Notes: generated by a model from the sequence alone, not told the origin. A stretch of DNA of 64,000 nt from Amoebophrya sp. A120 (GCA_905178155.1 CAJINV010000007.1:68799-132798), one strand, 5' to 3'; shown: positions 185-57,099, counted from the first letter of the stretch. Translations and numbers: made by a program.

Positions 185-1497
185 CTACAATTTACTCCTT
201 CGTAGTTTTACTTCGTCCGCTGCGTCGTTGGCTTTTGCAATCTCCTCTAACAAGCTCTTCACTGCGACGTCCTCTTCTGCACTACCGGGGGAAGAAGTTG
301 TAGATATTTTTGCCTTCAACACCCCAAGCAGGTTCGCACTAGAGGCCGCAGAACTGCTCGGCCCGATAATGATCAGCTTCGTTTTGACGCCACCCGCGGA
401 GGTCATCGCGTTCTCCACTTTTTCGTCGAACGCCTTCTTCGGATCCCTCGTGGTCTGCACCTTCTGCTGTTCGAGGAAGTTGTACAGCGGAAAAGCTACA
501 AAAGGATCAAGGGACACCTGGATGTTGCTAAAATTATTCCTTAAAACCTGCAGCGCCATCCGCAACAGAAGTTCATCCGCGATCTTCGCATTGGCGTGCG
601 GGGCATTTGTATCGCAAGAAAAAACTGTTTCACTGTAAACTTGTCATGCAGAGAATGGAACACAGAACAATTTGTCTTGCTACACCTGCAAGGCATTGGA
701 TTTTTAAGCGTGGTTTCCCTTGGGAAGCACGCATGGTAAATTTCCCCTGTCATGTGTAGCAAACTTGTGATGCGGATCCTGCAAAACCATCACAGTGAAA
801 CAGTTTTTTCGTGGGATAGTTTGAACCTTCGGTTTTCTCTACGCGAAGAAGAAGGCGGTAGTTTTTATAACCTGCTCAGCTGTTACAATCTCAAACGTTA
901 CAATAGAATATGGAAATCTGTGATGCAAGAGTGCATGTTCTAGCCAACTCTCATAGGATTGCGCATGACAAGTTCCGGCGTCCCAAACTGAACTACAATC
1001 TGGCGAAATTTGTATTGCAGAGAGAGAAACCCTCTGCGAGTCTGTCATGCTCATCATGCAACACAAGTCTCAAATTCTATTGTAACGTTTGAAATTGTAT
1101 CACCTGAGCGGGTTATAGTTTTCCTCTACTTTGGGCAGGTGTTCGGGGGAGAACTTTTTCGCGATTTTCCGTAGATCTTTGTCCTTGTATGAATTGCAAA
1201 AGCATCGTACTAGTAGAAATGGCATGACAAATTTTCTCTGCATCACAAATGGAATTTGTAATGCTGATTGGCCTTGAGAAAGAGACTTGTAATGCATAAA
1301 TGCAATTACTACGAGTACAATACTTTTGCACAGGATACCTTGATTTGCCCGGCAAAAACCTGGCTCCATTTGCTCGTTTTCATAGCGGCGGAAGTTGAGG
1401 ACGTCATTTTTGAAGAAAGCGCAGGATCTTCACTTGTGGCCATTCTAGAATTTTCCGAATAAATGAGGGACGACGAGCCCGTATTATAGTAGTTCAT
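185..1497 (-). CDS. Hypothetical protein, 4 exons, split by 3 introners (start uncertain)
   Basis: Removing 1188-1337, 866-1117 and 610-818 (each plus one 5-nt repeat) gives a continuous frame: ...WSQVFAGQIK-DKDLRKIAKKFSPEHLPKVEENY-RLLLRVEKTEGS-NAPHANAKIADELLLRMALQVLRNNF...RRSKL*. Confidence 0.7.
610..818. mobile_element. Introner (TIR intron), family TATCNCANGAAAAAACTG
   Basis: 27-bp TIR with 2 mismatches; flanks ATTTG/GTTTG; homologous to 34156-34374. Confidence 0.85.
866..1117. mobile_element. Introner, family TATAACCNGCTCAG
   Basis: ~40-bp TIR; DR GTTTT; homologous to the 42865-45406 element in opposite orientation. Confidence 0.9.
1188..1337. mobile_element. Introner, family A (TATNNNNTGCAAAAGTATCGTACT)
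   Basis: Imperfect TIR; DR CCTTG; frame restored on removal. Confidence 0.85.
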
Positions 1498-1666
1498 ACT
1501 TCTTTGCAACGCGGTAAAACTGGTGTACTGTGACAAATCACACAAACGATAATTTTTCTATTTGCTTTATTTGTGCGGCCGGAAAAACAGCATCTTACCA
1601 GCAACACTGTCTAGAAGAAAATGCGACTGTGCGTGGATGCTGCACAAGCTACACGTTTTTTCTCAA

Positions 1667-5073: not shown

Positions 5074-7422
5074 TTTTGATTTTGGTTTTCCTGCTGCAAA
5101 GAGCAAAAAAAAATTTTGATGTTGCTTGTGGCTATGGAAAAATTGAAAAGGATAAGAATTATTCTTCCGTAACGATCTTGCTACTTGGCTTATACTAGGA
5201 AGGGATGAAGTTCGTTAAAGAAGAAAAATAATATTAACAGTTCTGAAAAAAATGCCGTATTTATACTTGCAAACAGTGTGAATTTTTAAATTTTAATTCT
5301 AGATAGCCATATACAAAACGTCAAAAAAAGCAAATTTGGCAGCATTCCGTGCTGTATTCTTACTTTGGTTTTTCCAAAAAAAACAGCATTGGGTACAAAA
5401 AATGCATTACAAATTGTGAATTTGTACCGAAATACTCACCGACGGGTGGGCAAAAAAATCTTCTTAATGTTTCAAAGAGTAATTTCGTAGCTGGCCCAAG
5501 TCTTTCGTGGATGTTACGGTTACCGAATTTGCATTACAAATGTAGAAAAATGCAATGGCTTATTTTGTATACCGAAAATGATCTACGACACCTACGAAGG
5601 AAGACGAAGCGAAGAATAAAACTATTGCTTCCGATGGGGTGGGTAGGCATTTACGGGAATGGGAATAAACATTCAGGCTCTCCACCAATGTTGGACCGAC
5701 GACTCGAACAACAAATAGAGATAGAACTCAGCTCGAGTTTCGCACGATCGCATTCGTTGAGATACCCACAAAAGACTGTCATTTGGTGTGTGTACAAGAA
5801 TTGCTCAATTCGATTTCGTGCATCACAGATTCATCTTTTCTCGCATCAATTTCTCTTTGTGTAAAAAACAAGAAAAAACATTTTCACGAAAAAAGTGCAT
5901 GACAGACATTTTGTTTCTTCACAGACTCAGTGTGGGACAACAGTTTTCACCCCTTCATCCAAGCTGCCAGGGAACACAAATAAAACAGCTGAGAGAATGC
6001 GCTTAGGCAGTTATTGTTCCTCTTTTCCACTTATAAGGTGGCCCACTGGCGCACTTAGCAACCCACACGCAGTGTGAGTGCTTTACCTTCGACTTCGCCT
6101 TTTTTGTAAAAATCCCGCACAAAGAAATTTGAGCAAGACCAAGACGTGGTAGTTATGCAATTTATCCAAAGTATGTGGTGGACTCTTCATGTTGTATCTT
6201 TATCAAAACTGGCAAGCTCCAGGCTGCAACTGCATGCAATTGCAAGAGCAGGCCATAGAAGAAGTCTCATTAAATTCATCAATTTCATCCACTGCGACTG
6301 CCAAAAGATCGCCCACGAGGCGCAATATGGATATAAACTAAGATTGATCGTTGTCCCGGGAATATGTTTTCAAAACTGAGTAGCACGCGCACTTGTGCAA
6401 CTCCCTCACGCCTTCGCCTTCACTGGTTTCTACGACTCACCAGCAGCTTTGCGGCTAACGCTAAGTTGTTGAGCAGACATTTTTACCACAATGTTCGCTA
6501 TGAGATGAAAAAAGAATCGTACACTCTATATGTCGAGAACTTCAGTTCTGTATAAAAAAAAAAAACTTTTCTACTTCTATTCCAAAAATAAATCACATTC
6601 ATGTGGTCTAGACATGATCGAGAGCTGATCCTCTAGTTCTTAGTTCCATCTTCCAAAAGCGTCATTCACCGAGAAGCATACTGGCACTGTAGGCAGGAGG
6701 AGGAGCAGCCCCCATGCGGAATATGACGAGTTTGTAACTTCTGATGGTGATGTACATGTAGAGATCTCGTCTTCTATATTCATAAGTTCCTACAAAACTT
6801 CCTCCTGCTCAGGCCGCCTATGCATCTCGTCGGGCCATGCTGAGATAACACAGGGTTTCCTGCAAAGGCCGCATCTTGTATGTATCTCGTGCTGTGCTGG
6901 GATTCTTTCTTTCTTTCTTTCCATGCCTGGGCATGGCATCAATTTTTCGAGGCCCGTGCTGGGATAAGTGAAGAAGTTGTTAATACGTGGCGCTCGACTT
7001 GGTTTCAGGAGTGCTTCATCATACAACTACGCCCAGTGGTCAAACGCTGGAATGTCAATGCCTACTGAGCTATAGTACATCTACAAATACAATCATCTCG
7101 TATATCATAATAATGATTATGATTTCAATTTATGAACCTCCGCCAAATGCTATAATGCCCTTTCTTCCCTACTTTCCTACGGGTACTAATTGTTCACAGG
7201 TGTGGCAAATCAGGTCTTCTTCCACCTCTTTCCACGCACGACGCGCAGTCCCGGCGGCCAGCGAAGGCTTGCATATCCATGCGCGGGAAAGAAAACCAGA
7301 GTCTACGTGCCACGACAAAGTTTCAGCTTCTTCGTGTGTTGCAGAAGAGCACTATTTCTACACCACGGCACCCGTTGTAAGTACTTCTCGCTCATCGTCT
7401 CCTCCGACCTGGTGCTGCGTAC

Positions 7423-9664
7423 TTAGTTCCAGGGTCGCGACAGTTGTATCGTCAATTTCAGCGAGTACAACGACCCGTCGCCCTGTTCCTTTTTAACCTT
7501 CATTTCTAGGTGCGTGTGCGTTGTAAAGCCAACCGCTTCGGACATGTTGTTCACTGCAACATGGCCATGGGGTCCAATAACAAGCCTGCCGCGGCGGCGG
7601 CGGCGGAACGAAGCTGCAGCTTCCTGAGAAAGCCGCACGGGCCGCGTCCCAATGACGAGCACTGGCGTTTCAGATGTGCCAGACAAGACCCACCTACATG
7701 TGGCGTGTGGCGGACCTGCTGCCAGTGCGATCTCGAGGACCTTCAGAAATTCCGTGTAGAACGATTTGGAGTCCACAACATCCTGGAACCGCGGAGAATG
7801 CAGTTCTACGTAAGGCTCCAACAACTCTGCCAGCAGGAGCGACTCCTTATGAACTGCAAAAGTATCGTACTCGTATAAATGCATTACAAATTTCCTCAGC
7901 GTGAGAGATAAAATTTGTCATGCGGATTTACGTTAAGAAAAAGATTTGTAATGCAAGACTTGCATTTATACGAGTACGATACTTTTGCACAGGATACTCC
8001 TCCGGCGGCGGCGATGCTGGGCGGCGGGAAAGCAAAGCCGCAAAGGTTTCGTGTCAAATGTAAAAATGTCTGGGTCTGGAAGATTGATGCCAGGTTTGTC
8101 ATGCACATTTTGCATGACTCCTGATCGATCTGTGATATGCATGCCCTAGCATCACAGATTTTGTGAGGACTTCCTGATGCTTATACCGCATGACAAATGC
8201 TCTTTCCGTGTAGCAAAACTTGGACTCTCTTTGCTGCTCATGCAATACAGATTTTTTTAGAATCCAAAAGCAGCATGACAAGTTGCATTCTTCCAGACAT
8301 CCAGGGATTTTTACATTTGATATTTCGTTTGCTGCAGCAAGTTCGGGATGAAAAATCCAGCGCTTCAAACGCTTCTGCTATCCTGTGCAAAAGTAAATCG
8401 CACTCGTACTAATTGCAGTTATGCATTACAAATCTAGCTGTTAAGGTAAATCAGCATTACAAATTCAGGTTTGTAATGCTGAGCTAATTTGTATTGCGAT
8501 TTATACTAGTACGATACTTTTGCACAGGATATTCTGCTATCCTGTGCAAAAGTAAATCGCACTCGTATTTTCAATCGCAGCCATGCATGACAGATCTATA
8601 AGTTACTAAGGGAAATTCGCATTACATGTGGTTTAGCCTAGCGCTTAAGGCTCCGGGGAATAAAACCTTTTCAAGGCTCCGGGGAATAAAACCTTTTCCG
8701 TGCATATATTAAAAAAAAACTCAAACTGAAACAACACACGCCTGGGATTATGGAAGCATATATTTACATTGTGCTAATACTTTCTTGTAATTAGAGCGGG
8801 GGAACAAATGGCCCGTTAACTCGCACCCGCGAGTTAGCCGTCCGCGCGGCCGGCCGGACGCCGGTTAACTCGCGGCTAGAAGTGTTGACAAGTCGAAAGG
8901 TGGCGCAAATCTAAAAACCCGAAGTGCTCCAAAATTTGTAATGCAAATTTCATTCTTTCCGTCTCCCTTCGGAAAAATTTGTCATGCGATCTGTACTAGC
9001 GCGATGCTTTTGCAATGCGTATCTGCTTGACCGCGACAAATTCCTCGGCGAAGTTGACCGGTTTCGACGTGCCGGCAAGCAAATTCCAAAGGTTATCAAA
9101 TGCGAAAGTGTAAGTGTCTGGGTCTGGGAGATTCTGATACTTGTCACGCACGTTTTGCATGAGCCATGATGTCTGTGATGCATGCCGTAGCATCACAGAA
9201 TTTTCAAGGGGCTCTTGATGCCTATTTCGCATGACAAATGCCCTATCCGCGTAGCAAAAATTACATTCCCTTATTTGCTACTCATGAAATACAAATTTTT
9301 TTGGAATCCAAATGCAGCATCACAAGTTGCATTCTTCCAGACCCAGACATTTTTGCACTTGATACAGGTTCGATGGTAATGGAGAATTCACACACGTTGC
9401 TTTAAGCAGGTTCCGAAAATGGGCTGCGACTTTCCTCGTGTCCGCCCCCGGCGGGGGCGCGCTGCCGGCCGCAACTCTTTCCAGCACTGGTTCCGGAAGA
9501 TCTGCCAACGACATTTTTGGAGATGTTCCGTGATTCCCCGCGGCTCGGCAGCCAAGCGGCGCCATCACTCCCATCAGGGAAAAACCGACAAGAAACACCA
9601 TGGAACCAACAACACTCGTGGTGGAGGTCCGCACACGACGGGAGGCGTGCAGCAGCGTCAGCAT
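7423..9664 (-). CDS. Putative secreted protein with F-box-like motif, paralog 1
   Basis: N-terminal hydrophobic stretch, then SLADLPEPVLERVA. Spliced frame: ...LPSN-LWNLLAGTSKPVNFAEEFVAVKQ-KRLKRWIFHPELAAANE-TFAALLSRRPASPPPEE-SLLLAELLEPY...SRPWN*. Aligns with paralog 2. Confidence 0.8.
7848..7996. mobile_element. Introner family A
   Basis: TIR; DR CTCCT; site empty in paralog 2 (~16365). Confidence 0.9.
8052..8322. mobile_element. Introner family B (TATCAAATGYAAAAATGTCTGGGTCTGGAAG)
   Basis: TIR (left end reads TGT); DR TTTCG; site empty in paralog 2. Confidence 0.9.
8379..8531. mobile_element. Introner family A (first of tandem pair)
   Basis: TIR; DR TTCTGC. Confidence 0.85.
8538..9021. mobile_element. 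Introner family A, expanded by nested insertions
   Basis: DR TCTGC; orthologous to 16472-16643; contains a ~25-bp tandem duplication (~8647-8697) and a GAGCGGGG-type TIR end at 8794. Confidence 0.8.
9094..9364. mobile_element. Introner family B
   Basis: TIR; DR AAGGT/CAGGT. Confidence 0.88.
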
Positions 9665-9787
9665 TCTGTAGTTGCGGGCTACTTATTTCTTTGTTGCTAA
9701 AGAGAGGGTCAGGCTTTTGAAAGCTGTGTGTTAAGATGCGCTTAGTTGGCAAGGCTGGTGTCGTGGGGTGTTACACCTCCAGTGGAA

Positions 9788-12929: not shown

Positions 12930-12969
12930 ACTTGTCTGCTTCCTTGACCGATCATCATTTGGCTGACAA

Positions 12970-15575: not shown

Positions 15576-17603
15576 CTACGGCGCGCCATATGTCAACCAG
15601 GGGTCAAACACTGGAACTGGTCGTGGCGCCACCAGCTTTATCTCCAATGTCAGCAAGTACTCTTCGCCCTGCTCCTGTTGGGGTCCGCTCGGACTCGGGT
15701 TCTCCACCTCCACTTTTGCAGCCTGCATTCTGAGGTACGTTCCAGTCCGAAAGCCGGCATCGTCGGTGTAATCCAGAGGGGCTTCAAAGGCAAGGCCGAG
15801 AAAGTCGAAAGCTGCTAAAATTTCCTGAGAAAGACGCACGGGCTCCATCATATTAACCGCGATCCCATTTGGGCCCATCAAAAATCCAAATTCGGCGCGC
15901 GGCCCATCAGCTTCCTTCACCCCAAAGGCAAATCCAAATTCGGCGCGTGGCGGCACTGCTTGCAGCCCGGTCTCGAGGATCTTCAGAAGTTTCGGATAGG
16001 CACTGTATGGGGTTCTCAAACGTTACACTCTCAAATGTTAATACATGATTTGTCATGTAAGTTTGCCATGAGTACCTACATGATCAAGCTGCTTCGCATG
16101 ACAAGTTCGCGACTCGCAAAATAGGATTAGAATCTCAATCTGTGCCAACCCTGTAGTGCAAAAGGCGCAATCTTCCCCCTTTCGATTTTGGCACTCTTGC
16201 ATTACAAACTCACGCAACAGTTGAGAATGTAAACATTTGAGAACGCCATACACTGCGTTGAGCCCGTCGAGCTAGTCCACGGGGATCTTCACCAGCATAA
16301 TTTCCGTACCGATCATCATGCCACGTCGGAAGATAAGGTTGCAGCAACTCTGCCAGCAGGAGCGACTCCTCCGGCTTCGATTCTCGAGGGCGGGAAAGTA
16401 ACCCGGCAAAGGTTTTGTCTACCGCAGCGAGTTTGGGATGAAAAGGCCCCGCCCGCTCTGCACGCTTCTGCTATCCCAGGCAAAAGTTTTTATATCGCAC
16501 TCGTACTTCTATCTAGTAATCGCAGCCACGCATGACAGATCTATGGTCTATGGACCACAATCCGCCTATTATACAAATTCCATTCTTTCTTGTCATGCGA
16601 TTTAGATACTATACCAAGTGCGAAGATGCTTTTGCAATGGGTATCCGCTTGACCGCAGCAAAGGCTTCAACTAACTTGCGCAATTCTGTGCCCAATTCTT
16701 GCGCGCGATCCACATATTAAAGTGAAAACTGCCACCCACCCCTGAAATTGCAAAAATTTGCGATGCGAAGTTTCCAAATGAAAACTTTTTGTCATGCATG
16801 AAAGGAGTATGAATCTTTCTGATGCAGAGCCTAGGCGTGTATCGCATCGCTTGCATGACAAGCGCCGCTCTTGCTGGGGTCTTTTGCAATACAAATTTTT
16901 TCTATTCACGATTGGAAACCTGTAATGCTGATAGATGCAAGAGGGCGAGTGTTTCACTTGGTGGAAAGGCTTGCAATACAAATGCTCCCAAGTTCGGGGG
17001 TGGGGGCATTTTTCATTGTGATACCACATACGGCAAGTTCCATGGAGCATTCGTACACGTTGCACGAAGCAGGTTCCTATCAACTGCAAATATGTCTGGG
17101 TCTGGAAGGGTGTAAACTTGTCATGCAGGTTTCCCATGAGCATGACCTGACCCATGAGGTTTGGAATGCGGGACCTAGCACTACAGAGTCCGCGAGGTCT
17201 CTGTCATGCCTATCCTGCATGAGAAGCTCCCTCCCAACTTGGTCGAAAGTGGACAGGCAACCACAACACAGATTCATTTTTGCATGATTCGGATTTAGAA
17301 TGACAAGCCGCAATCTTCCAGACACAGACACTTTTGCATTTGATACTTCCGAAAATGGGCTGCGACTTTCCGCGTGTCCGCCCCCGGGGGCGGGGCGCTG
17401 CCGGCCGCAACTCTTTCTAGCACTGGTTCCGGAAGATCTGCCAACGACATTTTTGGAGACGTTCCGTGATTCTCCGCGGCTCGGCAGCCAAGCGGCGCCA
17501 TCATCCCCGTCACCGAAAAACCAACAAGAAACACCATGGAACCAACAACGCTCGTCGTGGGACTCAGCACACGACCACGGCAGGCGTGCAGCAACGTCGG
17601 CAT
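15576..17603 (-). CDS. Putative secreted protein with F-box-like motif, paralog 2
   Basis: Spliced frame: MPTLLHAC...SLADLPEPVLERVA...AAHFR-NLLRATCTNAPWNLPYV-DRAQELGTELRKLVEAFAAVK-xKRAERAGPFHPKL...RAQRS-AYPKLLKILE...TYGAP*. Confidence 0.82.
16006..16250. mobile_element. Introner family C (TATGGNGTTCTCAAA)
   Basis: TIR; DR CACTG. Confidence 0.9.
16472..16643. mobile_element. Introner family A, older copy shared with paralog 1
   Basis: Degenerate TIR; DR TCTGC/TCCGC. Confidence 0.8.
16715..17023. mobile_element. Introner, family D-like (CCCCACCCC subterminal)
   Basis: Imperfect ~35-bp TIR; DR CCACA. Confidence 0.82.
17078..17345. mobile_element. Introner family B
   Basis: TIR; DR GTTCC/CTTCC; empty site AGCAGGTTCCGAAAAT in paralog 1 (~9405-9420). 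Confidence 0.9.
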
Positions 17604-28841: not shown

Positions 28842-29000
28842 TATTAACTAGCGCTATAACTTCTAATTTCTGCTTTATTAGGAAGCTGCTTTATTTTAAT
28901 AGGTACCATGCGCAATACACACTGTAGAAACAAACGATCGTCATGCTTGGCTGAGTACTTTCCGCTCAGTCGCGAAGATCCGAAGATCAATCCAAAAATG

Positions 29001-29465: not shown

Positions 29466-29898
29466 AAGGCGACTTCTGGTCTCGGAAGTCTAAGGACAGG
29501 GCGTCCCTGAAGTGGTACACGATCAACTAAAACCTTAAACCACCGCTATCGCGAGGCACCGTGCGCACACGAACATATTAAAGCACCTAGTTACCCAATA
29601 ATAAAGGCTGTACCATCAAAAGGCGACTTCTGTATGCTGGATTTGCATTTGCGTACGCGTGCGCAAAATAACGGGCTTGTATTGCAGAAAGGGCCTGGAG
29701 GCATTTATTTCTGACCCTGTTGATTGGGTCGTTTGCAGAAGGCTAGCAATTGAATACGGCAATGATTTTTGCAGCTGGCATCAAAAGGAAAAGCCTAAGC
29801 CTTGCGCATCCATTACATATTGATTGGTTTTGGAAAATACGCCATATGGTTCCACCACAGCCTCGGTAGCCGTATCATGCAAGACGAGGCTGATTTTT

Positions 29899-38300: not shown

Positions 38301-38547
38301 TAGCATGAACACCAGCAATACAAACCCCAGCACACGTAGAGCCTCTGCATGACAAATGTGTCGTGCGCCCAGTGTAGTACTGTTTCTACTTCCGAAATTT
38401 GTCATGCACACAATGCCACGAGACAGCGACTGGATTTGGCGTCTTGCATGACAAATGAGAGGGAAGGGGACGAGTTGTGCACTGTCATATGAGAAACGTT
38501 TCCTGCTGGTTAGCCGTGCCCGGCATGGAGGAAGCCGTGTCCGCCAT
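32365..38547 (-). CDS. Conserved-looking coiled-coil protein (possibly flagellar/basal-body associated) carrying 16 TIR elements and canonical introns
   Basis: Spliced: [26 protein letters not shown]...[112 protein letters not shown]...[52 protein letters not shown]...[21 protein letters not shown]...SA*. One frameshift near 36078; 35200-35410 and 33950-34097 unresolved. The function is a recollection-level inference. Confidence 0.8.
32418..33614. mobile_element. Introner family C expanded by a nested repeat array
   Basis: Family C ends; DR TGGGA/CGGGA; removal gives EKLFP-QRAGLP. Confidence 0.8.
32857..33492. repeat. ~133-bp tandem repeat, ~4.8 copies, each with an internal hairpin
   Basis: Unit starts near 32857, 32990, 33123, 33251, 33385; stem GGGCGGTATGGACTTTCTACGCC / GGCGTAGAAAGTCCATACCGCCC. 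Confidence 0.92.
33646..33906. mobile_element. Introner family E (TGCACAACTYCCC subterminal)
   Basis: Imperfect TIR; DR CCCGC/CCAGC; related to 36139, 38258, 45448. Confidence 0.75.
34156..34374. mobile_element. Introner (same family as 610-818)
   Basis: TIR; DR TCCAA. Confidence 0.88.
34407..34552. mobile_element. Introner family A
   Basis: TIR; DR TCGGC. Confidence 0.9.
34607..34872. mobile_element. Introner family C
   Basis: Imperfect TIR; DR eroded GGCAT/GACAC; frame restored. Confidence 0.78.
34909..35080. mobile_element. Introner (degenerate, 610-818-like)
   Basis: DR ATACG/ATAGG; joins EKIAY-VDAIRR. Confidence 0.72.
35420..35700. mobile_element. Introner family B
   Basis: TCTGGGTCTGG / CCAGACCCAGA ends; DR GCTCG. 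Confidence 0.85.
35732..36025. mobile_element. Introner family D
   Basis: TIR; DR CTTTC/ATTTC. Confidence 0.85.
36139..36389. mobile_element. Introner family E (degenerate)
   Basis: DR TGTGA/TGTGC; joins CKQH-KREVD. Confidence 0.75.
36448..36863 (-). other. Canonical GT-AG intron
   Basis: AAG|GTGAGG ... TTCTGTAG|GAG joins SLEK to ELEWF. Confidence 0.8.
36458..36673. mobile_element. TIR element (GTGTAAGTGT family) lying inside a canonical intron
   Basis: DR GAAGA/AAAGA; related to 41190-41408. Confidence 0.75.
36870..37171. mobile_element. Introner family D
   Basis: TIR; DR TTTTC. Confidence 0.88.
37209..37358. mobile_element. Introner family A
   Basis: TIR; DR GATCT/GGTCT. Confidence 0.88.
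37457..37674. mobile_element. Introner (TGCAAAAGTTGTATCGTGCT type)
   Basis: TIR; DR eroded TCCGT/TCTTT; joins HER-DFFLAY. Confidence 0.8.
37719..37928. mobile_element. Introner (GTGTTACAGTTACAC type)
   Basis: TIR; DR TAAGT. Confidence 0.88.
37960..38177. mobile_element. Introner family A-like (degenerate)
   Basis: DR TCGCT/TCTCT; joins SLAE-KLKSL. Confidence 0.78.
38258..38489. mobile_element. Introner family E
   Basis: TIR; DR TGAGG/TGAGA; joins ETFL-TSVKEK. Confidence 0.8.
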
Positions 38548-41091: not shown

Positions 41092-42280
41092 CTACTTTCG
41101 AAAAAAACCCGCCGTCCAATCATGTTTTGGCTTTTTCAAGTTATTCCATTTCTCAGTGCTTATCGCAGGAAGGTGTCGTGATGTTGTAGTATCCAAGAAA
41201 AAAGTGTGTAAGTGTAACTTTGTAGGAAGATCAGCATCTTCACGAATTCGTTTTGCATTACAGGGAAAACCTGTCATGCGCAGCTAGTACGTGGAAACAC
41301 CTTCTATGAAAGCGGCCTATGACGCACCTCTAGCATGACAAGTGTAACTTAACAGTTTAGCATTTCCTGCATCACAGACTTACACTTACACAGTTTTTTC
41401 CTTGCATATGTAGAAAACTCCAAATCTTCTGCGTCATCACTTCGGCCTTGGGGGAGATTCCGGTGCCCCCGTGCCCGCCGTCGCGCTCCCGTTCAGAAGC
41501 GGCACCGTGCCCCCGCCTGGAAATCCGGCGGTGCTGGTTGAGAGGACGCTGTCCTTGGTTGCATTCACCAAGAGATTATGCATTGCAAAACTATGTAAAT
41601 CGCTATCGTACTACTGGGAATTGCCTTTGTACAAATTTTCTCAGAATAATATAACACAAATGGAATTTGTAAAAATGCTGATTCAGCTACAAAAGTCGAT
41701 TTGTCATGCGAGGTTGCGATTACTCCGAGTACGTTAATATACTTTTGCAGTGCATAGAGGTGCTGGTTTGTTTGGTTGGACGCAGAAAGCGGCTCCGGCG
41801 GGGATCGAATGCCGCTGGCTGTACTTATCAAATGTAAAAATGTCTGGGTCTGGAAGATTGCCAGGCTTTTCATGCACATTTTGCATGACTTCTGATGTCT
41901 GTGATGCATGCCCTAGCATCACAGATTTTGTGAGGGCTTCCCGATGCCTATACCGCATGACAAATGCTCTTTCCGTGTACCAAAACTTGGACTCCCTTTG
42001 CTGCTCATGCAATACAAATTTTTTTTAGAATCCAAAATCAGCATGACAAGTTGCATTCTTCCAGACCCAGACATTTTTTACAGTTGATAGCACTAGTACT
42101 CACACCATGGTACAGCTGCCCGTTCTGTAGTCTTCTCGACGCGGTGGTGGGGTCCTCTCCTGCTGCAACCGCGGACGAGGGAGATGAGAACATAAAGTCG
42201 TGCAGGGAGCGGAGAACTGTCTGCGCCACCGAACCCCCGGATCCACCTGTAGTGGGGTCGTGTGTTGAGGAATCCGACAT
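41092..42280 (-). CDS. Probable low-complexity coding exons (separate gene or tail of the 4-TM gene)
   Basis: MSDSSTHDP...VSTSA-ASGIRSPPE...NQHL-LVNATKDSV... is in frame after removing two elements; 3' end ambiguous. Confidence 0.4.
41190..41408. mobile_element. Introner-type TIR element (GTGTAAGTGTAA family)
   Basis: TIR; DR TGTAG. Confidence 0.85.
41577..41756. mobile_element. Introner family A-like
   Basis: TIR; DR GAGAT/GAGGT. Confidence 0.8.
41826..42089. mobile_element. Introner family B
   Basis: TIR; DR GTACT/GCACT; very similar to 8052-8322. Confidence 0.9.
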
Positions 42281-42489
42281 ACGTTGCTATTGCTATAATA
42301 GTACAACATCGCATTTATTAATTATAATTTCACCTTGCTTCTAAACTTTATTCAGAAGTGCTTGTCTTGTAGTTCATCTCAACTTCAACAGCAGGATGTT
42401 TGGACAAACAATAACAAGGGGTGCTGAGCTGCTACAACACGACGCTGCACCAGGTTTTTCTTCTACGACTGCGTCTAGCACGATTTATA

Positions 42490-45400
42490 TCATATGTGAA
42501 TGCTACCGTGCTCCTGCCGCCCATGGGTGGAACTTCCGCCATGCATGTTCTCCTGGTAGATCTCCCTAGTGACGGTGGTGTCGTACAGCCCGTGATGGTA
42601 CTCCCCGCGCTTGGTGTCTCCGCCAGGGTGCGCCGCGGCAGAGGTGCCGCTGCTCCCGCCGCCGCCGAAAAAGGTCGTGAAGGCGTTCGTTTTTGCCGCG
42701 TTCGCGAATTGCGTCGTTTGCTGGTGGTTTTCACGATCCATATAATCCTGGTCGAAGCTAATTGTGGCCGATTCGTCCAAGTCTCCCACTTTCCCCAACT
42801 GTTTCAACGATTCGATCTTCCCGTCCACCAGTGCGTTTTCGTTCTGCAGCGTCTCGATGCTGAATATGACCTACTCAAACGTTACAATCTCAAGCGTTAC
42901 AATAGAATCTGAGATTTGTCTTGCATGATTTTTTTTTTTTTTTTTGCCAGGGCTGGGGGGCAGACTCGAGGACAGTGGTCCTCTCCGCCATGGGCTACCA
43001 CACGATGCACATGCAAAAACTTATTGCCCCAGCCGGATCCGATGCGATCCACAACATATAAAAACACAACCGACATCATATAAAACAGCATATAAATCTT
43101 CAGAGTTCCGGATCTTCGTCGAGTTGTGCGTAGACCGCAGAGCGGACCTACGCAGAATATACCTTTCCCCGTCCACAGCCCTTGCTTTCTATCTTGCAGT
43201 ATGCAGTTTCCAAAAAAAGTAATAGATTTCTTCGCCAGTTTGTTGTTGGTTTAATAATATATTGATATTCTATTTACATTTTTCTCAGCTCTTACTTTTC
43301 AAATTTGTTTACAAATCATATCCAGATCATCTGCTTCTGGGAGCTGACGTAATTGAAAAGTAAGAGCTCCGCATGAAAGAACTGCAAACGTGAATATCAG
43401 CTTTTTCTCTTGAGCCCCCAACAAACTGCTTTACTCTATTACTTGCATTGCGTATTAAATTTTCCTTTCCTCCTGGATAACCGTATTCCACCGTCAGGTC
43501 GACCGTGCGCATGACTAAGACTAACAAGGATACTCAGCTTACATCTACTTATCTTTACTACAAGAAAAGAACTTACTGCAATTTTTATTGCTGTACCTCG
43601 CCTCCTTCTAATTAAGCTTCTTACTTTTTCTCGTTCCAGCCGGTCCGCTAGTACGGAACCACCGCAGCCATGACATCTTTATGCGCTGATGCCGCCGGAG
43701 CCCGTGCATGGTGCCAGACATGGGAAGGACTTGCACCATACCCACGGGAACAGCAGCATCAGCGGGTGGATATCACGTCAACGCTGATCCCGCACTGTTA
43801 TGTTCTTCGTTATTCCTTCCATCAGGGTAGCTGGGACAGGAACATCGACTAGATCATGAGCGCACTTTTGCCGTAGCCCGACGTTGTTGCGCCCTGGGAT
43901 CTCGCCTGGCATTTGTCTACTTTTTCTCCCATCGACATCGTCTCACCACTTGTTGACTAATTGACGGGCAGACCAGGCGGCGGCATGTTCATGATGACGG
44001 CCTGGGAGCGATCCGGCCGGCTGCTTATCGGCAACTCGCTGCTCCTAGCTTTATAGCTGCTTGGAGAGAAAGAGCGTTCATCTCTTATTTTTTTATAATA
44101 GCATGACAAATCTATTCGCAGCAAAATGTTGCAGAATCTCCCTGCGCATTGCATCCTTGGATTTTTGCTATGAATTGCTGCATCTGCGAACACACCTAGA
44201 GAGAAAGTTTTACTTTAGGGGTGCCTCTTTATCATCATTCCACCAGCAGGCTCTACGTCGCCATCAGCATTCATCTAAATTGGTTTTTGCTGTCAGCTCC
44301 ACATCGTTCACATTTCTTTTTCGTTTAGCACCCACCAGATGTCAGCTCCATTGCCGTTCTTTTTTTTTTTATTATCTTCGTTGAAGTTATTTCATGAAAA
44401 AAAGACTAAGCTTTTCGTGATCTGACGCTGTGACTTCCCATGAATCTCCTCCTGTTTCGGTTTCCCCCACCTTGTTCTGCAGCTTGTTCTGCGCCCTCGT
44501 TTTGGTCCGCTTGTTCTTCGTCATCTTGCCCATCACGCTCAGCACCGTCTTCCCCCTCCGCCCGTTGCGCATGGACTGGCACCGCGTTGAAGAAGTTGTT
44601 GATGTCGAGCGCCAATATGTGATTATTTGCGCCGTGTCTGGGGCGTTCTTGGGGTTCTTCTTGTCCTAGCACCCGGCGGATGAGTTGCAGTATTTCCGGT
44701 CCCATCAGTCCTTGTCTTACTCCCATCGGTACTGTAACCGCAATATCATCCCCAAATTGTGCAACAGCTATCTCTTCTTGTGCTGCTTCGTCATTATTTT
44801 CTCGTGCCATTTTTTCCTTTCCTAGCACGCATGACAAATTCATAAAAAATTTCTTCAGCCCCGCTCTGGGGTTGGTCGGGGCAGGGGGTTCAGAAGGGGT
44901 CCTGTCTGTCAGTGCATATCTCCATTCCGTGCATCATGTCACAAAGAAGACATCCGGGTATACAGGTATTCTTGCTCGTAGCAGAAAGGAAACCTTGATC
45001 AAGCTTCAGAGGTAAATAAACACCGGTCAGCACAAGAAGTAAAGGGAAGATCTATGGAGCAGATCCTTTTGGCAGAGGAACTGCGGAACGGGGGGAGGCC
45101 GCAACAAAAGGGGGAAAGAAGGATCCTATATAGGCACAAAACAAAAGACAAAAAGATCACAAAATGCCTTTTCATGATGAACATGACAGACTCGGACAAA
45201 AAGATTTGTCTTGCATGATGAACATGACAGACTCGGAGAGCATTCCACTTTCTGCAATACAAATTTCGCCAGATTGTAGTGCGGATTGGGACTCCAGAAC
45301 TTGTCATGCGCAATACTATGAGAGGTGGCTAGATCATGCCCTTTTGCATCACAGATTTCCATATTCTATTGTAACGTTTGAGATTGTAACACCTGAGCGG

Positions 45401-47007
45401 GTTATACTGAATCCCTTCAGTTTCGACTTCATGGAGCGCTCGAGGAGTATGAGACTACACAACTCCCTCTCCCCCTCATTTGTAATGCAAAATACCAAAT
45501 CCACCCTTTGCCCCTTGGCACTTTTTGCATGACAAATTCTGGAACCTCAAACAGCACTACAATCTTCCTGGGCGAAGTTGTCATGCAAGACCTGCATTGT
45601 TGCCGACGCTTGTATTGCTGTTTATGCCCGACAAATGAGGGGGGCAGTTGTGCACCCTCATAAGTAGAAAGACAAAGGCAAAAATCCCCGCAAAAATCAG
45701 CATACAGGATAGATGCACGTAGAACCGACTCGGGAAAACCCAGGTCAGCAGGATACTGGAGAAGAAATACAGCAAGATGGCCTATCCTGAGTAAAAGCGT
45801 CCCCATACCAGGGTAAAGATGGGAAATCTGCTAGACAAATCAGCCACCTTTGGTTGTTTCGCACGACAAGTTCATCCTCGTAGAAGTGTCATCCTGTTTA
45901 GCTAGTTCAGCAGCATCACAGGTCTATCATATCATGCTGTTTCTAGCATCACAAATTATCCCAAAACACGACTAGAAAAAGCCTCTCATGGGGCTTCGCA
46001 TGAGAAACTTTTTTGGCATGCAGATTTGCATGACAACTCTGGGGTGGGGATGTTTTTACTTAGAATATCGCCAGCTTAAACATCAAGTAGACGGACTCTT
46101 GCTCTTTCTTCAAAAAGTCCACTGCCCGGTGAAAGCTGGCAATTCCGTCGGGACCCCGCAGCGCCAGTCCCGGGCCCCACATCGCGAGAAAGACCGTGCA
46201 GTATTGTCTGAAATTTATCAACCATGATGTGATCCCCATTCCCTTTTTGCATGACAAACACAGAATCATTTACATTTTCGTACATGTTTATTTGCATGAC
46301 AAATTGGATGGGGCGGAAGATGGTGACTTTATTTGAGGGAATACCCATGTCACGGTGCACACGGAAGCGCCAAAGGCGCCGGACGTGAGCGAGAGGTATG
46401 CAATACAAATTTCCCGTACATGTACAAGATGCATCACAAATTTCGCCAATTTGAAGCGTAAAACTTGTCATGCTAGACTAGGATCGAAGCCAATTTTTGT
46501 CATGCAGAGACCGCATGTGTACGTGTACGGGAAATTGCCTGTGGATAAGAGGTAAACCGAAGACACGAGGTAGGAGGTTTCGTAGGGTATCGGTGTCGTC
46601 AGTTGGTTGAAAAGGTATCAAATGCAAAAATGTCTGGGTCTGGAAACTTGTGATGCTGGTTGAGAAAAACGAGAAAACCTCAATCGACTGCCAAGCATGA
46701 CAAGTTTTGGAGTTGCTACAGTCTTGTCTATTCTGCATGGCAAACTGGGCGTCTACATGAGAGAAAAGTGGGGGGTTTGGGTCACGCGCATTACAGACTT
46801 AGGAGTCATGCCAGCCAAGCATGACAAACCTTTCATCTTTCCAGACCCAGACATATTTGCAATGCATAAGAGGAACCCACCGACAATGGTCGACGCGCCG
46901 CACCAGAGCCAATAATTCGCGACGTAGTAATCTAGTTCCAACTGCCGCAGTTCGGCTTGGCGGATTGACACATCCGCCACGACCTCGTTCTTGTAGGCTT
47001 GAAGCAT
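42490..47007 (-). CDS. Four-TM membrane protein, Orai/CRAC-channel-like fold suspected
   Basis: MLQAYKNEVVADVSIRQAELRQLELDYYVANYWLWCGASTIVGGFL-FNQLTTP...VSSVYL-SLTSGAFGASVCTVTW-xVFLAMWGPGLALRGPDGIASFHRAVDFLKKEQESVYLMFKLAI-LLYFFSSILLTWV...IFAFVFLL-ERSMKSKLKGFS-IETLQNEN...; four hydrophobic segments. The family assignment is inference. Confidence 0.7.
42929..45201 (-). mobile_element. Poly(A)-tailed retro-insertion
   Basis: T17 at 42929-42945; duplication AGATTTGTCTTGCATGA at 42912-42928 and 45202-45218. Confidence 0.75.
44406..44810 (-). CDS. Short ORF (134 aa) with reverse-transcriptase-like motifs in reversed order
   Basis: AVAQFGDDIAV, then MGVRQGLMGPEIL, then HILALDINNFFNAV. Confidence 0.45.
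   Translation of the reverse strand: MARENNDEAAQEEIAVAQFGDDIAVTVPMGVRQGLMGPEILQLIRRVLGQEEPQERPRHGANNHILALDINNFFNAVPVHAQRAEGEDGAERDGQDDEEQADQNEGAEQAAEQGGGNRNRRRFMGSHSVRSRKA
45448..45662. mobile_element. Introner family E
   Basis: TIR; DR AGGAG/AGTAG. Confidence 0.82.
45783..46067. mobile_element. Introner family D
   Basis: TIR; DR TGGCC/TCGCC; reverse orientation of 35732-36025. Confidence 0.85.
46202..46343. mobile_element. Degenerate introner
   Basis: TATT...AATA weak TIR, two GCATGACAA motifs, DR lost; needed to join two TM exons. Confidence 0.5.
46397..46547. mobile_element. Introner (AATTTCCCGTACA type)
   Basis: TIR; DR AGAGG. Confidence 0.88.
46616..46868. mobile_element. Introner family B
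   Basis: TIR; DR AAAGG/AGAGG. Confidence 0.88.
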
Positions 47008-49720: not shown

Positions 49721-49721
49721 G

Positions 49722-51430: not shown

Positions 51431-51499
51431 AGAGTTTTGCTAGCGCGGGAAGAAAACCCGCAAAACTGAAGAGAGATCAGCTGCCTTGCGATTCTTGAC

Positions 51500-53004: not shown

Positions 53005-56000
53005 TCAAATCATCTCCCAATCGGAAAAATGATCGCCTTCCAGTACAGCAGCTACCTTGCTACTCTGCGGAACATATGGATTGCGAATATGTCTGGGTCT
53101 GGATCTGGAACGATGCCGGGTCTGGTGATGCGTGTCCAAGGAGAGACCCTGCAGTCTCTTCGAAAGGCTATTGACGGCCTCGTCGTCGACGAGTGCGCCG
53201 CTGGCACGACAATTTTCAGGACCACCAACATTCGCCGTATCACCGTGAGCCTGATGATCGCGCATCAGTCGGGTGTTGGTGTAGCTGCGATTCTGTCCCC
53301 GCTTTTTTGGCTCACCATTCATTTCCGTTTCAACCAGCCCGGATTCCTTTCCAGGCTGCAGGTATGCATTGCAAATATGTCCGGATGTCTGGAAGGATGC
53401 AAGGTTTGTCATGCTTGTCTGGCACAAACGCAGTTTTTCATGCGGCAGGCGCAACGCTAAGCTGCGCAAATATTTCTCATGCTTGGCTGTGCACCATTAC
53501 AGACGAGAATTCACTATTCACAACTCAGCATTACAAGTTTCGGTTTCCAGACCCAGACATATTTGCATTTGATAGAACAAGCTGAGCTGGAACAGGAAGA
53601 ACTCGATCGGCAAGCCCGTCTGCCACGGGGTTATTATGGAAGCGTCAGGATTGAAATCGTCAAAGTCGTAACTAATAGTTTGTGATGCATAAAATGCAAC
53701 CCACAAAATGCCTGTCTTGCAGAGTAGGCAAGGGAGGCAGGTTGTAAGCCTGTTGAGGGGTAGAAATAGAGCTGCTAAAGTAGCACGACAAAAGGCGTCT
53801 TCCTTACCCAAACAGCATTACAAACTGGATTTCGGCTCTACCCAAATTTGTCATGCGCCAGTTGAGAACTGGGTTACATCTGGCATCCATTTTATGCATG
53901 ACAAATCATTTCAACTTTGTCGATTTCAATCCTGACGCTTCCATAGTCTTGCGCGGCGAACTGTCCTGCTCGACGTTGCCTTTTTCGGCGGCGCGACTGA
54001 GAAGAAGTACTTGCGCGACCAGTGGCTTTTCGTTTATTTGTTGACGTGCGCAGCGCCTGCTGCTGCGCAGTAGACTCAATCCGTTCCACGTTCGACGCTT
54101 TGAGCATCTCGACAATGGATTGTCGTTGCCCATACTTCGACCGTTATCCTGTGCAAAAACGTCCCCAGCCTCAAGATGGGATGAAATCTACTTTAGACAA
54201 ATCAACCAGCTTTGGTCGTTTCGCAGTGGTTGTTTCGCATGTTGACAAGCTTTGTTCCTTCATAGTGTAAAACTCCTGTTCAGCTAGTTCAGCAGCGTCG
54301 CAGATATAGCATGTCACGCTGATTCTAGCATGACAAATTCGACGTCCAAAACACGACTAGAAAATGCTTCTCATGGGTTTCCGCGTGGGAAATTTTCTTT
54401 GGCATGCAGATTTGCATAAATGCAACTCTGGGAACCGTGGGGACGTTTTTGCTCAGGATAACCGCCACAGCGTACTCCCAAGGAAATCTACGGTAACGAG
54501 ATTGACTGCTCTGCCTTTCATCGGAGGCTTCTGCGCACCAGACGACGCGAGCATCAGTAGTTGCCACAGCTTTTCCCACCAAGCTTGTTCTTCAGGCACA
54601 GGACGGGCGCTAGAAGGAAAAGCTCCTGCTTGTTGATATAAATCCGCCGCCTTCACAAACTCGAAGTCAGCACCCACCTTCGCATGGTTGTCGGCGTAGA
54701 AGGCGCTGTGTGGTGCTGATTATTATCAAATGCAAAAATGTCTGGGTCTGGAAAAATGCCAGACTTGTCATGCAGATTTTACATGACCCATAACGCCTGT
54801 AATGGATAACCTGGCATCGCAGATTTTTAGCGGGCTTTCTGATGCCTATCCCGGATGAGAAATGCCATCTCCATGTAGCACAAACTGGACCCCTCTTGCT
54901 GGTCATGCAATACAGATTTTTTTAGAATGCAGAGACAGCATCACAAGTTGCAATCTTCCAGACCCAGACATATTTGCATTTGATACTGATGTTTTTTCAC
55001 CAGCGGACGACGACGAGGACATCAACGTCTTCGCGTGCTCGACTCTTCTTTCCCACCGCTCGCAGTTTTCTTCCAGAATCGTGTACACCTCATTTCGCGG
55101 AACTCCGGTAAATGTGAAGGAAGACCGGAAAAGCGGAGTACTAGTACCCACTTGCTTGGGGATGAAATTCTGAAACTTCTTCACTTGTCCGTCCATCACC
55201 TTTGACAGGTCCGTGGAACTCGAATACCCACCCACAAACTCGTCTTGAAACGAAAAAACGCTGTCTGCTAGTTGCGCGGTTTCTTCGGAACCTGTACCTA
55301 GCAGCCGCCCCCGCAGCTCTCGATAGGCTTTCTTTTTAGCCTCGGAACTACCCGCGTAGTAGGTCACCACAATCCTCGGTCCTCGGTTATTTCTTGGAAA
55401 TAGAGTCGTGCCGCGTTTGGAATCGTCGAAGATTGGTGCGGCCTTCACGACTTCGGCAACCGTCCACTCGGACAGAAGCGGCGTCTCCTCGGGGGGGTCG
55501 CAGAGAACGTTCTGGAAGGTGCCAAGAGGAGCCATCCTCCGTTTCGCTTTCCTCGTCGAGCAGGCGCTGCCTTGCATCATCAAGATGTTTTTTCTTGTTC
55601 AGGTCCATTATTTTCGGGCCCCGCGTCCTGCTTACCAACAAGTCTGCCAGAGCAGAAGCTTCCTCGTCCAGGGTGGTAGTTGATGTTCTATTTTTTATAA
55701 TTCTTGTGGGCGACTTCTGAAAAAACCGCCTCAGCAGCTTCTCCGCCGTGTCGACATTACTTCTCAGGTTCAAAAAAATCACTTGGTCTCGGCTTTCCTT
55801 CTCGAACCGTTTCTCGAAGCAGAACGCTGCAAGGTCCGCGAAAACAGCATCGGCCGAAACAGCTAGTTGACGCACACCGAAACCGAAATCCCCATGGTAC
55901 GCGCGGATAATTTCCTCGTTGGCGGCTCCGCTGGCTGCATCCAGAACGAATCTCAAGTCAAACCACCGCGCGCCAGCGCGGAGCTGATCAAGGATGGACA

Positions 56001-57099
56001 AACTCTGGGTCTCCCAGTTCTCCTCTACACGGAAAGTAGAGTGCACTTCTTCTTGACGTTGACTCTTCATCGACCGAGGGTCAGAAGCAGCTGCGACCCG
56101 GCGGCCCCGAGGTGGGACAAGATATGAAGATGTGGCAGCAGCCGCAGCCGCCCCGTGGTGAATCAGCCGCGCGCCGACCCTCCCTGCCCGGGAAATGTCA
56201 AACGTACCCCGAATACTGCCGCTGTCGTATCAAATGTAAAAATGTCTGGGTCTGGAAGAATGCAACTTGTGATGCTGCATTTGGATTCCTATTCCAAAAA
56301 AATCTGTATTGCATGAGTACCAAAGGGAATGCAATTTTTGCTACGCTGAGAAGGCATTTGTCATGCGGAATAGGCATCAAGAAGCCTTCAAAAGATCTGT
56401 ATTGCTAGGGTATGCATCACAGACATCATGGCTCATGCAAAACGTGCATGACAAACCTCGCACTCTTCCAGACCCAGACATTTTTACATTTGATATGTCG
56501 TGGGTGCCGACGAAAGTTAGGTCTTTCAGCTTCACTTTGTCTTGCAGATTCAAGTCGCGAATCTTTTGCAAGCCGGCTGGATCCAGAACGAGCAAATCTT
56601 CCGGGGTACTTTCAATAAGCTCCTGCTGCTCGGGTTGCTGGTTATTGGAATTTATTGGGATGCTAGTACCAGTACCACCTTGAAGATTTGCGGGGGACGA
56701 TACATCTCCTACAACAACTTCTTCGCTGTGGTCAACGATGTTCGTCCAGCCAACATCTTCAAAATCCAGATCTTTCTGTTTTGCAGCTGTAATGACGCTC
56801 CATTCAGGTAACTCCCCCTCTTCCTCCACCACCTCTTTCGCACGAGAAGGCCTTCGCTGCTCAGGACGCGCAGGTACTTTCTCTTTCTGCCCCCCACCAC
56901 CAGAGAAATAACCTGCAAAGCGGTTGAAGAGTGCAGATCCTCGCGCCGGCTGTCCGAGCTCCTGCAACGAAAGCGCCTCGACTTGATGGACAATCCCGTG
57001 CAGTGCCAGCTGCACGGAAAAAGAGGCCAGCAACATGCCCACAACCACTGGGGCAGCAGCACGGGGGCGCAGGACCAACTCGTGACACCTTCGCGTCAT
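53005..57099 (-). CDS. Secreted PI-PLC X-domain (PLC-like phosphodiesterase) protein with 5 introners
   Basis: Signal-like N-terminus; LKDLTFVGTHD-S, ETQSLSILDQLRAGARWFDLR, AYHG and VNLVTVDFL match PI-PLC X / PLCXD motifs; one frameshift between ~55490 and 55590 (homopolymers). Confidence 0.85.
53075..53574. mobile_element. Introner family B with duplicated left TIR (53075 and 53363) and cargo
   Basis: DR GAACA flanks the outer ends. Confidence 0.8.
53635..53945. mobile_element. Introner (TATGGAAGCGTCAGGATTGAAATCG type)
   Basis: 25-bp perfect TIR; DR eroded GTTAT/GTCTT; joins AAQD-PVADG. Confidence 0.88.
54145..54460. mobile_element. Introner family D
   Basis: TIR; DR ACCGT/ACCGC. Confidence 0.87.
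54721..54985. mobile_element. Introner family B (extra TAT at left end)
   Basis: TIR; DR CTGAT; joins EKTS-APHSAF. Confidence 0.9.
56228..56495. mobile_element. Introner family B
   Basis: ~31-bp perfect TIR; DR TGTCG; splits GTHD|S. Confidence 0.93.

What the first reader, a model, noticed from the sequence alone, without database searches (positions are those of the whole stretch)
641..56460. One 9-mer, TTGT(C/G/A)ATGC, is shared by otherwise unrelated introner families
Seen: TTGTCATGC, TTGTGATGC, TTGTAATGC and their complements occur several times per element, in both orientations, across families with no other similarity (e.g. 641, 765, 1256, 8096, 16096, 53848). By eye they are scarce in reconstructed exons and persist even where TIRs and direct repeats have eroded (46202-46343). 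Inference: a host-selected recognition signal (splicing-factor or guide-RNA site) or a common transposase-binding site. This could be the missing cis-code of the non-canonical splicing system.
Basis: partly seen in the sequence, partly recalled or inferred. Interest (0 to 1): 0.8.

Follow-up and report, generated by a model that had tools for sequence, protein, structure and literature searches.

The report
Helically spaced DNA code in introners
The transposon-like introns of this marine parasite nearly all carry the same 13-base word, in either direction and at fixed spacings of about three DNA helical turns; it likely marks where one still unknown protein grips the DNA to move them, and one base looks preserved after insertion, which would mean the host uses the word too.

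Summary
Observation confirmed: 127 hits against about 2 expected, 0 in 8,377 bp of RNA-covered exon. In 434 elements called without using the motif (window plus 151 metagenome loci), 405 carry it, as do all 15 multi-copy families. The word is about 13 bp (AAYYTGTVATGCD) on a 32-bp lattice (18+14): direct pairs lie 31-33 bp apart in 14 of 15 families, with a ghost inverted half-site between; the first inward site sits about 30, 40 or 51 bp from the end. It ignores transcription direction, partner sites do not covary, and two excised introns lack an intact copy, so a single-stranded RNA or guide site is not supported. Best reading: duplex-DNA binding sites, likely for the unidentified mobilising enzyme. 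Against a mobility-only role, the motif's invariant G changes at about 1%, below the 3-4% neutral rate read from target-site duplications. Families are not wholly unrelated. The intron class is published (Amoebophrya A120 type); I did not find the motif in print. This scan noted motif and spacing before on other pieces of this genome.

The parts
610..818 (.). 209-bp element; motif at 641+, 765+
   Evidence: inverted repeat, 4/5 duplication
866..1117 (.). 252-bp element; motif at 963-
   Evidence: inverted repeat, 5/5 duplication
1188..1337 (.). 150-bp element; motif 1222-, 1240-, direct pair 1256+/1287+ (31 bp)
5310..5571 (.). probable relic; motif 5404-, 5531-
   Evidence: weak ends, 1/5 duplication; boundaries uncertain
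7848..7996 (.). 149-bp element; direct pair 7915+/7946+; empty site in the paralogue near 16334-16401
8050..8320 (.). 260-bp-family element with damaged ends; motif 8096+, 8188-, 8273-
   Evidence: boundaries approximate
8379..9021 (.). two 150-bp-family copies (8379-8531; 8538-9021 with an internal insertion)
9094..9364 (.). 260-bp-family element
16006..16250 (.). 245-bp element; motif 16096-, 16199-
16472..17345 (.). three elements: 16472-16643, 16715-17023, 17078-17345
19255..19478 (-). element removed with one duplication copy; convergent pairs 48 and 50 bp apart
   Evidence: RNA joint 19249-19479; sites
19531..19792 (-). 260-bp-family element; mismatched duplication informs the cut register
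   Evidence: RNA joint 19526-19794
19842..20009 (-). 168-bp element; three sites, all one orientation
   Evidence: RNA joint 19836-20010
20400..21124 (-). three elements: 20400-20544, 20633-20884, 20972-21124
   Evidence: three RNA joints
21200..21375 (-). eroded element with no exact motif (best matrix score 10.6) but intact termini; still excised
   Evidence: RNA joint 21194-21376
21436..22787 (-). four elements: 21436-21687, 21818-21970, 22300-22455, 22635-22787; the last two are one family in opposite orientations in one gene
   Evidence: three RNA joints and consecutive contig pieces
23992..25656 (.). four elements: 23992-24136, 24222-24373, 24894-25102, 25324-25656
28697..29063 (.). eroded 367-bp element with no exact motif (best score 9.0); absent from RNA contig
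   Evidence: RNA joint 28634-29064, left side ambiguous through a 60-bp duplication
29429..30601 (.). three elements: 29429-29985, about 30111-30404, 30449-30601
   Evidence: three RNA joints
32417..33614 (.). element enlarged by a 133-bp tandem array; motif near both ends
33646..38489 (.). cluster of 16 elements or relics (33646, 33957, 34156, 34407, 34607, 34909, 35420, 35732, 36139, 36458, 36870, 37209, 37457, 37719, 37960, 38258)
   Evidence: no RNA laid here; 33957 and 34909 uncertain
41190..42089 (-). three elements: 41190-41408, 41577-41756, 41826-42089
   Evidence: contig pieces and length arithmetic
42247..42506 (-). canonical GT-AG intron without the motif (control)
   Evidence: consecutive contig pieces
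42865..45406 (-). 2,542-bp element with 5/5 duplication; 7 of 11 matrix sites within about 230 bp of its ends; removed as one intron by contig arithmetic
45448..46067 (-). two elements: 45448-45662; 45783-46067 (five sites, all one orientation)
46397..46868 (-). two elements: 46397-46547 (terminal site is itself a motif variant), 46616-46868
53075..56495 (.). five elements: 53075-53574, 53635-53945 (motif 53848+), 54145-54460, 54724-54985, 56228-56495
   Evidence: boundaries uncertain

Best explanation
The motif is a word of about 13 bp repeated on a 32-bp lattice in nearly all introner copies, and it is likely an array of binding sites for one protein that reads double-stranded DNA, most likely the unidentified transposase (or partner) that would move every family. 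Shown: enrichment, lattice, phasing to the ends, indifference to transcription direction, lack of covariation between facing sites. Inferred: a multimer would bind pairs or triplets of sites on one helical face (31.6 bp is three turns of 10.5) and hold them in phase with the TAY-N7-AAA end, so any sequence with right ends and lattice is mobilised whatever its spacers; this explains one word in many families. Excision from RNA is inferred to depend mainly on the paired ends. The low change rate of one G suggests a further, weaker host use that is not identified.
For: Direct pairs 31-33 bp apart in 14 of 15 family consensuses, null mean 2.4, maximum 7 in 1000; mean 31.6 bp over copies. Ghost inverted half-site at +18/19 inside these pairs: score 2.05 against -4.96 +/- 1.14, 0 of 2000 shuffles, one unit per family. 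Spacer length off by 2 or more in 52 of 698 against 90 of 607 control intervals. First inward site at 29-31, 39-41, 50-52 in 13 of 14 family ends, best period 10.0, p 0.002. Orientation to host transcript about even in the eight largest families, including 13:12 for the family whose six sites all point one way. Core change rate 138/4520 and 147/4413 in the two transcript orientations. Variable base identical in 0.35-0.49 of facing pairs against 0.33-0.36 of unrelated pairs; at most 882 of 1624 strong sites could pair with each other. Core conserved within families, 3.1% against 8.0% interior, also in 30 copies without coding context (ratio 0.45 against 0.39). Absent from other repeat types. 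Precedent: subterminal repeats bound by Hermes BED domains (PMC10368747, passages) and Lemi1 (PMC1636448, abstract).
Against: No autonomous element or candidate transposase in 0.69 Mb, and Farhat et al. found no putative transposase in A120 and argued against transposase mobilisation (PMC7789003 section 16). The invariant G changes at 19/1870 = 1.0%, about a third to a half of the lowest neutral estimate, which mobility alone does not predict. Phasing does not separate B-DNA from A-form RNA (R 0.76 at 10.5, 0.73 at 11), weakens with singletons (best period 9.1, n 25), is absent for outward sites (p 0.6), and the shift within the largest family is 7-9 bp, short of a turn. Families share modules, so the 15 are not independent: 23 spacers fall into 10 clusters. 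Binding was not tested.
Confidence: 0.52

Rival explanations
1. Dual use: the same duplex-DNA sites are bound by a host (possibly domesticated) protein that marks each element in chromatin and recruits the U1-less spliceosome to the nascent RNA, so the DNA lattice is part of the splicing code.
For: Invariant G 19/1870 (1.0%), 9/701 outside the two largest families, against 2.9% (duplication mismatch halved) to 3.5-4.2% (codon-position estimate) neutral divergence since insertion; a 3% spike-in is recovered at 2.0-2.4 points, so the estimator hides only about a quarter. Equal in both transcript orientations. 46202-46343 has perfect motifs and weak ends and appears excised. U1 was not detected in these genomes (PMC7789003, passage).
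Against: 21200-21375 and 28697-29063 are excised without an intact site. The core as a whole (3.1-3.3%) is close to the neutral range; only G and, weakly, the first T fall below. Counted against family consensus over all copies the G differs in 90 of 2331 (3.9%), not below neutral (includes subfamilies lacking a site). Copies without coding context are as conserved (1/129). The increment with duplication mismatch is 0.75% core against 1.9% interior, difference interval -0.2 to 2.7. No precedent found.
Confidence: 0.22
2. Host duplex-DNA site with a role other than splicing (chromatin marking, silencing, protection of palindromes), exploited by the elements.
For: Sub-neutral G in coding and non-coding copies alike; strand symmetry.
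Against: Phasing to the element ends and absence from other repeats, including a long foldback, tie the word to this one element group.
Confidence: 0.12
3. The word is the conserved face of RNA stems: facing copies pair in the pre-mRNA and a double-stranded-RNA-binding factor reads them.
For: Facing sites 18 or about 50 apart can fold; consensus elements fold into long hairpins; slight G-U excess in terminal stems on the transcript strand, 208 against 158, p 0.01, with no mutational strand bias inside.
Against: Two families have no facing strong site; no covariation at the variable base and no flank complementarity; the commonest spacing is a direct repeat, which cannot pair; the G-U excess concerns the ends, and is absent in the largest family (99 against 103).
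Confidence: 0.07
4. Single-stranded RNA signal (splicing factor or guide RNA).
For: Exclusion from exons and from one canonical intron; sub-neutral G.
Against: No polarity to the transcript in counts, insertion orientation or conservation; transcripts with only either orientation exist (25 and 32 of 326).
Confidence: 0.04
5. Functionless relic of a common ancestral 32-bp palindromic repeat.
For: Ghost half-site and shared modules point to common descent or module swapping.
Against: Core changes at 0.39 of the interior rate in copies and spacing is held while spacers diverge.
Confidence: 0.03

Closest known systems
Introner elements of Amoebophrya sp. A120 (Farhat et al. 2021, PMC7789003; Gozashti et al. 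2025, PMC12130899)
   Same: TAT + 7 nt + AAA ends, short direct repeat, no GT-AG, many families, removed from RNA.
   Different: The text that I read describes only terminal repeats and direct repeats; no internal word or spacing rule. Figures (4c, S19, S25) were not visible to me.
Subterminal repeats of hAT elements bound by the BED domain (Hermes, PMC10368747)
   Same: Short repeated sites inside the ends, both orientations, quasi-palindromic pairs, asymmetric between ends.
   Different: Hermes site is 4 bp with 8-bp duplications; here 13 bp, a strict 18+14 lattice, 5-bp duplications; no transposase found.
Emigrant MITE and Lemi1 (PMC1636448, abstract)
   Same: Non-autonomous element needing internal repeated motifs besides the terminal repeat.
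   Different: One family and a known transposase; not spliced; here 15 families share the word.
IS3EU/GingerRoot (PMC10045372, PMC12730594, passages)
   Same: TA..TA (TAY..RTA) termini.
   Different: Usually 6-bp duplications; here 5 bp; no coding element to compare.
Euglenid nonconventional introns (PMC11282704, passage)
   Same: Terminal pairing, duplication-like repeats, non-canonical junctions.
   Different: Conserved bases lie in the terminal stem; no internal lattice is described in that passage.

Membership tests
Amoebophrya A120-type introner elements | Inverted repeat starting TAT, 7 variable nt, then AAA | tested here: met
   End logo of 434 elements: A at 11-13 in 0.86-0.94 (TAY itself was required by the caller; 476 of 520 homology-defined copies have both termini)
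Amoebophrya A120-type introner elements | 3-5 nt direct repeat at the boundaries | tested here: met
   351 of 476 homology-defined copies have a perfect 5-nt repeat, 87 one mismatch
Amoebophrya A120-type introner elements | Removed from transcripts without GT-AG | tested here: met
   14 of the 15 joints shown skip an element; 16 further joints were not shown; run type is the tool's guess, supported by a GT-AG intron removed in a contig of the same run
Transposase-bound subterminal repeat array | Repeated short motif inside the ends, in both orientations, strand-indifferent | tested here: met
Transposase-bound subterminal repeat array | Cognate autonomous element with the same ends and sites | tested here: inconclusive
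   None in 0.69 Mb, well under 1% of a genome of the published size
Transposase-bound subterminal repeat array | Binding by the transposase | not testable with these tools
   needs binding assays
Transposase-bound subterminal repeat array | Neutral decay after insertion | tested here: inconclusive
   Core near neutral, invariant G below
hAT5 (hAT with 5-bp duplications) | 5-bp duplication | tested here: met
   hAT5 as in PMC12730594 passage
hAT5 (hAT with 5-bp duplications) | hAT transposase in a cognate element | tested here: inconclusive
   no long coding element found; no hAT profile was run on the loci
IS3EU/GingerRoot | TA..TA termini | tested here: met
IS3EU/GingerRoot | 6-bp duplication (usual) | tested here: not met
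   5 bp; the flanking sixth base shows no excess
Single-stranded spliceosomal cis-signal | Polarity to the transcript | tested here: not met
Single-stranded spliceosomal cis-signal | Present in every excised intron | tested here: not met
   21200-21375 and 28697-29063; efficiency not measured
Single-stranded spliceosomal cis-signal | Complementary snRNA or small RNA | not testable with these tools
   no genome held; no Rfam match in the window
Tyrosine-recombinase core site (geometry recalled, not from a call) | Inversion or exchange between facing sites | tested here: not met
   9 of 14,415 copy pairs flagged, all involving terminal-repeat segments

The most novel reading that the evidence does not exclude
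Introns defined in DNA: a sequence-specific protein, derived from the elements' own mobilising machine, sits on a helically phased lattice inside tens of thousands of transposon introns and tells a U1-less spliceosome where to look in the nascent RNA, in either orientation. That would make a DNA-binding code part of intron recognition.
Probability: 0.2. Interest if true: 0.92.

Novelty: new variant of a known kind. Interest (0 to 1): 0.62.

Why it matters
How these introns move and how they are cut out without GT-AG and without a detected U1 are both open (PMC7789003 section 16). A defined 13-bp word with a spacing rule gives a bait for pulling down the protein and a graded mutation series for testing it. 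It also argues that the many families are served by one machine. If the host really maintains the site after insertion, a DNA-level mark takes part in handling these introns.

Tried and rejected
Viral contig scans with two end patterns and an idealised facing pair found nothing. Rfam: no match. Search for long elements with matching ends: one 834-bp hit without a convincing frame. The window's integrase remnant (12014-13816; Pfam rve E 2.5e-4, below cut-off) has no introner ends and no relative in the loci; rejected as the mobiliser. Raw RNA runs X9-X11 barely covered the introner genes: no information on splicing efficiency. Including DNA run X5 crowded the joint table, so RNA evidence there rests on contig pieces. 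Shared insertions in paralogues, the cleanest post-insertion test, gave one usable pair by eye (8538/16472): not counted. Terminus as a copy of the motif: only 5.6% of ends (family-weighted) score 7 or more; partial resemblance only. Element-length periodicity: none at 10.5 (R 0.25). Core inversion between facing sites: not found. One search timed out and was rerun. In one search the shift test only slid the junction; it did not test retention, and 147 nt is a multiple of three, so the frame does not decide 46202-46343.

Full report
1. Observation. The 9-mer is real. It occurs 127 times on both strands against 2.0 expected; the C, G and A forms number 73, 19 and 35, the T form 2. All six cited positions match. 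96 of 127 hits lie in 47 elements delimited without the motif, 123 of 127 once 18 eroded elements are added, a partly circular step. There is none in 8,377 bp of RNA-covered exon, none in a GT-AG intron at 42247-42506, and none in seven stretches of other repeats.

2. Setting. The elements have TAY-N7-AAA ends and 5-bp duplications, the signature published for Amoebrophrya-type A120 introners (PMC7789003 section 11). Contigs of a probable RNA run skip them: 14 of the 15 joints shown span an element, the other is a short cross-match, and 16 joints were not shown. In one search one 1,611-nt contig has 390 unlisted bases between 46868 and 42859; the exons sum to 391 with one base of overlap only if 42865-45406, 45448, 45783, 46202, 46397 and 46616 are all removed. 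Removal of 46202-46343 is therefore inferred from length, not seen as a joint.

3. Larger sample. No genome is held. One metagenome scan gave 151 loci with the same families, 0.69 Mb with the window. A caller that uses only termini, end pairing and duplication found 434 elements, and 0 in 302 kb of shuffles. 405 of 434 hold an exact 9-mer. Density is 8.5/kb in called elements; 359 further hits lie in 42 kb homologous to elements and 96 in the remaining 544 kb (0.18/kb). Reconstructed reading frames hold 37 hits in 154 kb, 25 of them in element-homologous parts. All 15 multi-copy families carry the word. Sampling favours one family (192 of 434).

4. The word and its grammar. The site is about 13 bp, AAYYTGTVATGCD, with tolerated variants; 4.2 sites per element by matrix. 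Direct pairs 31-33 bp apart occur in 14 of 15 consensuses (null mean 2.4, maximum 7); 371 of 883 adjacent direct pairs in copies have that spacing, mean 31.6. Facing pairs cluster at 17-19 and 48-52, back-to-back pairs at 13-14, 31-32 and 45-47. These fit slots at 0, 18, 32 and 50. The model predicts an inverted site 18 bp into each direct pair, and a ghost is there (0 of 2000 shuffles). Spacer lengths vary half as often as control intervals. The first inward site starts 29-31, 39-41 or 50-52 bp from the end in 13 of 14 family ends (13-mer start; add 3 for the 9-mer), best period 10.0, p 0.002. The period is not resolved between 10 and 11, weakens with singletons and is absent for outward sites.

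5. Are the families unrelated? Mostly not alignable, but not independent. After masking sites and termini, 11 of 105 pairs beat all 40 shuffles, about 3 expected. Two pairs align end to end and three share 100-150 bp modules under different ends. The 23 spacers form 10 clusters. This is remote ancestry or module swapping, not one recent ancestor.

6. DNA or RNA? Host strand was assigned for 326 of 434 elements (neighbours agree in 137 of 138). The eight largest families insert about evenly; the family with six same-direction sites is 13:12; 25 transcripts carry only one orientation and 32 only the other. Core change rates are equal in the two orientations (p 0.47). Facing sites do not covary at the variable base and their flanks are not complementary. 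Two introns absent from the RNA contig, 21200-21375 and 28697-29063, have no exact site but keep termini and end pairing of -23 and -20 kcal/mol; 46202-46343 has two perfect sites and end pairing of -9.6, like the canonical intron. A small G-U excess in terminal stems (208 against 158) points to RNA-level selection on the ends, not on the word.

7. Who selects it? Private changes, scored against three agreeing nearest neighbours, are 3.1% in the core and 8.0% in the interior, not explained by base or CpG content. That alone fits selection for mobility. As a clock for time since insertion I used the duplication: 5.8% mismatch per site (4.8-7.0), 3.6%, 4.0% and 8.5% at codon positions 1-3, so 3-4% per neutral copy. 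The core is near this range, but its invariant G changes in 19 of 1870 sites, ratio 0.34 (0.19-0.53) to the lowest bound; the first T 2.3%, terminal AAA 2.1%. A spike-in shows the estimator recovers about three quarters of added changes, which moves the ratio to about 0.45. Against: counted over all copies against the family consensus the G differs in 3.9%, non-coding copies are equally conserved (1 of 129), the age-increment test is borderline, and the clock fails if duplications are often imperfect at birth. I take this as moderate evidence of host-level constraint on one or two bases.

8. Mechanism. Most likely a multimeric protein binds the lattice on duplex DNA in phase with the ends and mobilises all families in trans (inferred; 0.52). 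Excision from RNA likely rests on the paired ends; three mismatched duplications fit one register, one base before and four after the element if these genes read on the minus strand. A host or domesticated binder that also aids splicing is the main rival (0.22). No binder was found.

9. Known and new. The intron class is known. Subterminal binding arrays are known from Hermes (PMC10368747) and Emigrant (PMC1636448). Termini resemble IS3EU/GingerRoot and the duplication length hAT5; neither membership is shown. I did not find the word or lattice in print: searches, and text searches of PMC7789003 and its supplement. What I saw: PMC7789003 abstract, passages, sections 11, 12, 16 and supplement text, no figures; PMC12130899 passages and 21 of 58 A120 rows of one table, files 13-14 not searched; PMC11282704, PMC10045372, PMC12730594 and PMC10368747 passages; PMC1636448 abstract. 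Figures and subscription papers (such as Roy et al. 2023, seen only as a citation) could show it. Helical repeat values and recombinase site geometry are recalled. This scan's earlier notes report the motif and its spacing on other pieces of this genome; I reached the spacing before reading them, and they are not independent support.

10. Verdict. Observation confirmed, interpretation partly supported, new variant of a known kind, interest 0.62.

Noticed in passing
window 19526-19794, 29423-29986, 30105-30405: RNA joints at mismatched duplications fit one cut register (first duplication base from the left copy, second from the right, on the + strand); earlier scan notes report the same.
   Followed up: partly
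window 42865-45406: 2.5-kb element removed as one intron; a contig of run X2 covers 43591-44896 inside it, over a 175-residue frame (44406-44933, minus) without Pfam match; two exact motifs lie in the cargo.
   Followed up: partly
window 19531-19617: 101 raw RNA reads of run X9 match the first 87 bases of this element type and then run into other sequence: a transcript elsewhere carries an element end.
   Followed up: no
window 12014-13816: Integrase-like remnant (weak rve match) interrupted by a LINE-like piece flanked by a 36-bp repeat at 12114 and 12930.
   Followed up: partly
window 6950-9700 and 15200-17650: Paralogous gene copies with mostly different insertions and empty sites; one shared insertion (8538/16472) keeps its motifs.
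   Followed up: partly
window 39296-40930: Foldback element with long terminal inverted repeats around a 50-bp tandem array; no motif.
   Followed up: no
window 1668-3332: Element with long inverted repeats rich in GAAC units spanning an assembly gap; no motif.
   Followed up: no
window 26695-28216: Highly covered transcript in runs X9 and X11 with poly(T) loose ends near 26694-26706 (minus-strand 3' end); no introner inside.
   Followed up: no
window 31609-31778, 9784-9960, 58030: Motif hits outside the curated list: two sit in probable relics, 58030 is unexplained.
   Followed up: partly
L007: Internally repeated gene with filled and empty sites for several elements at 89-94% identity, showing precise insertion after repeat duplication.
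   Followed up: no
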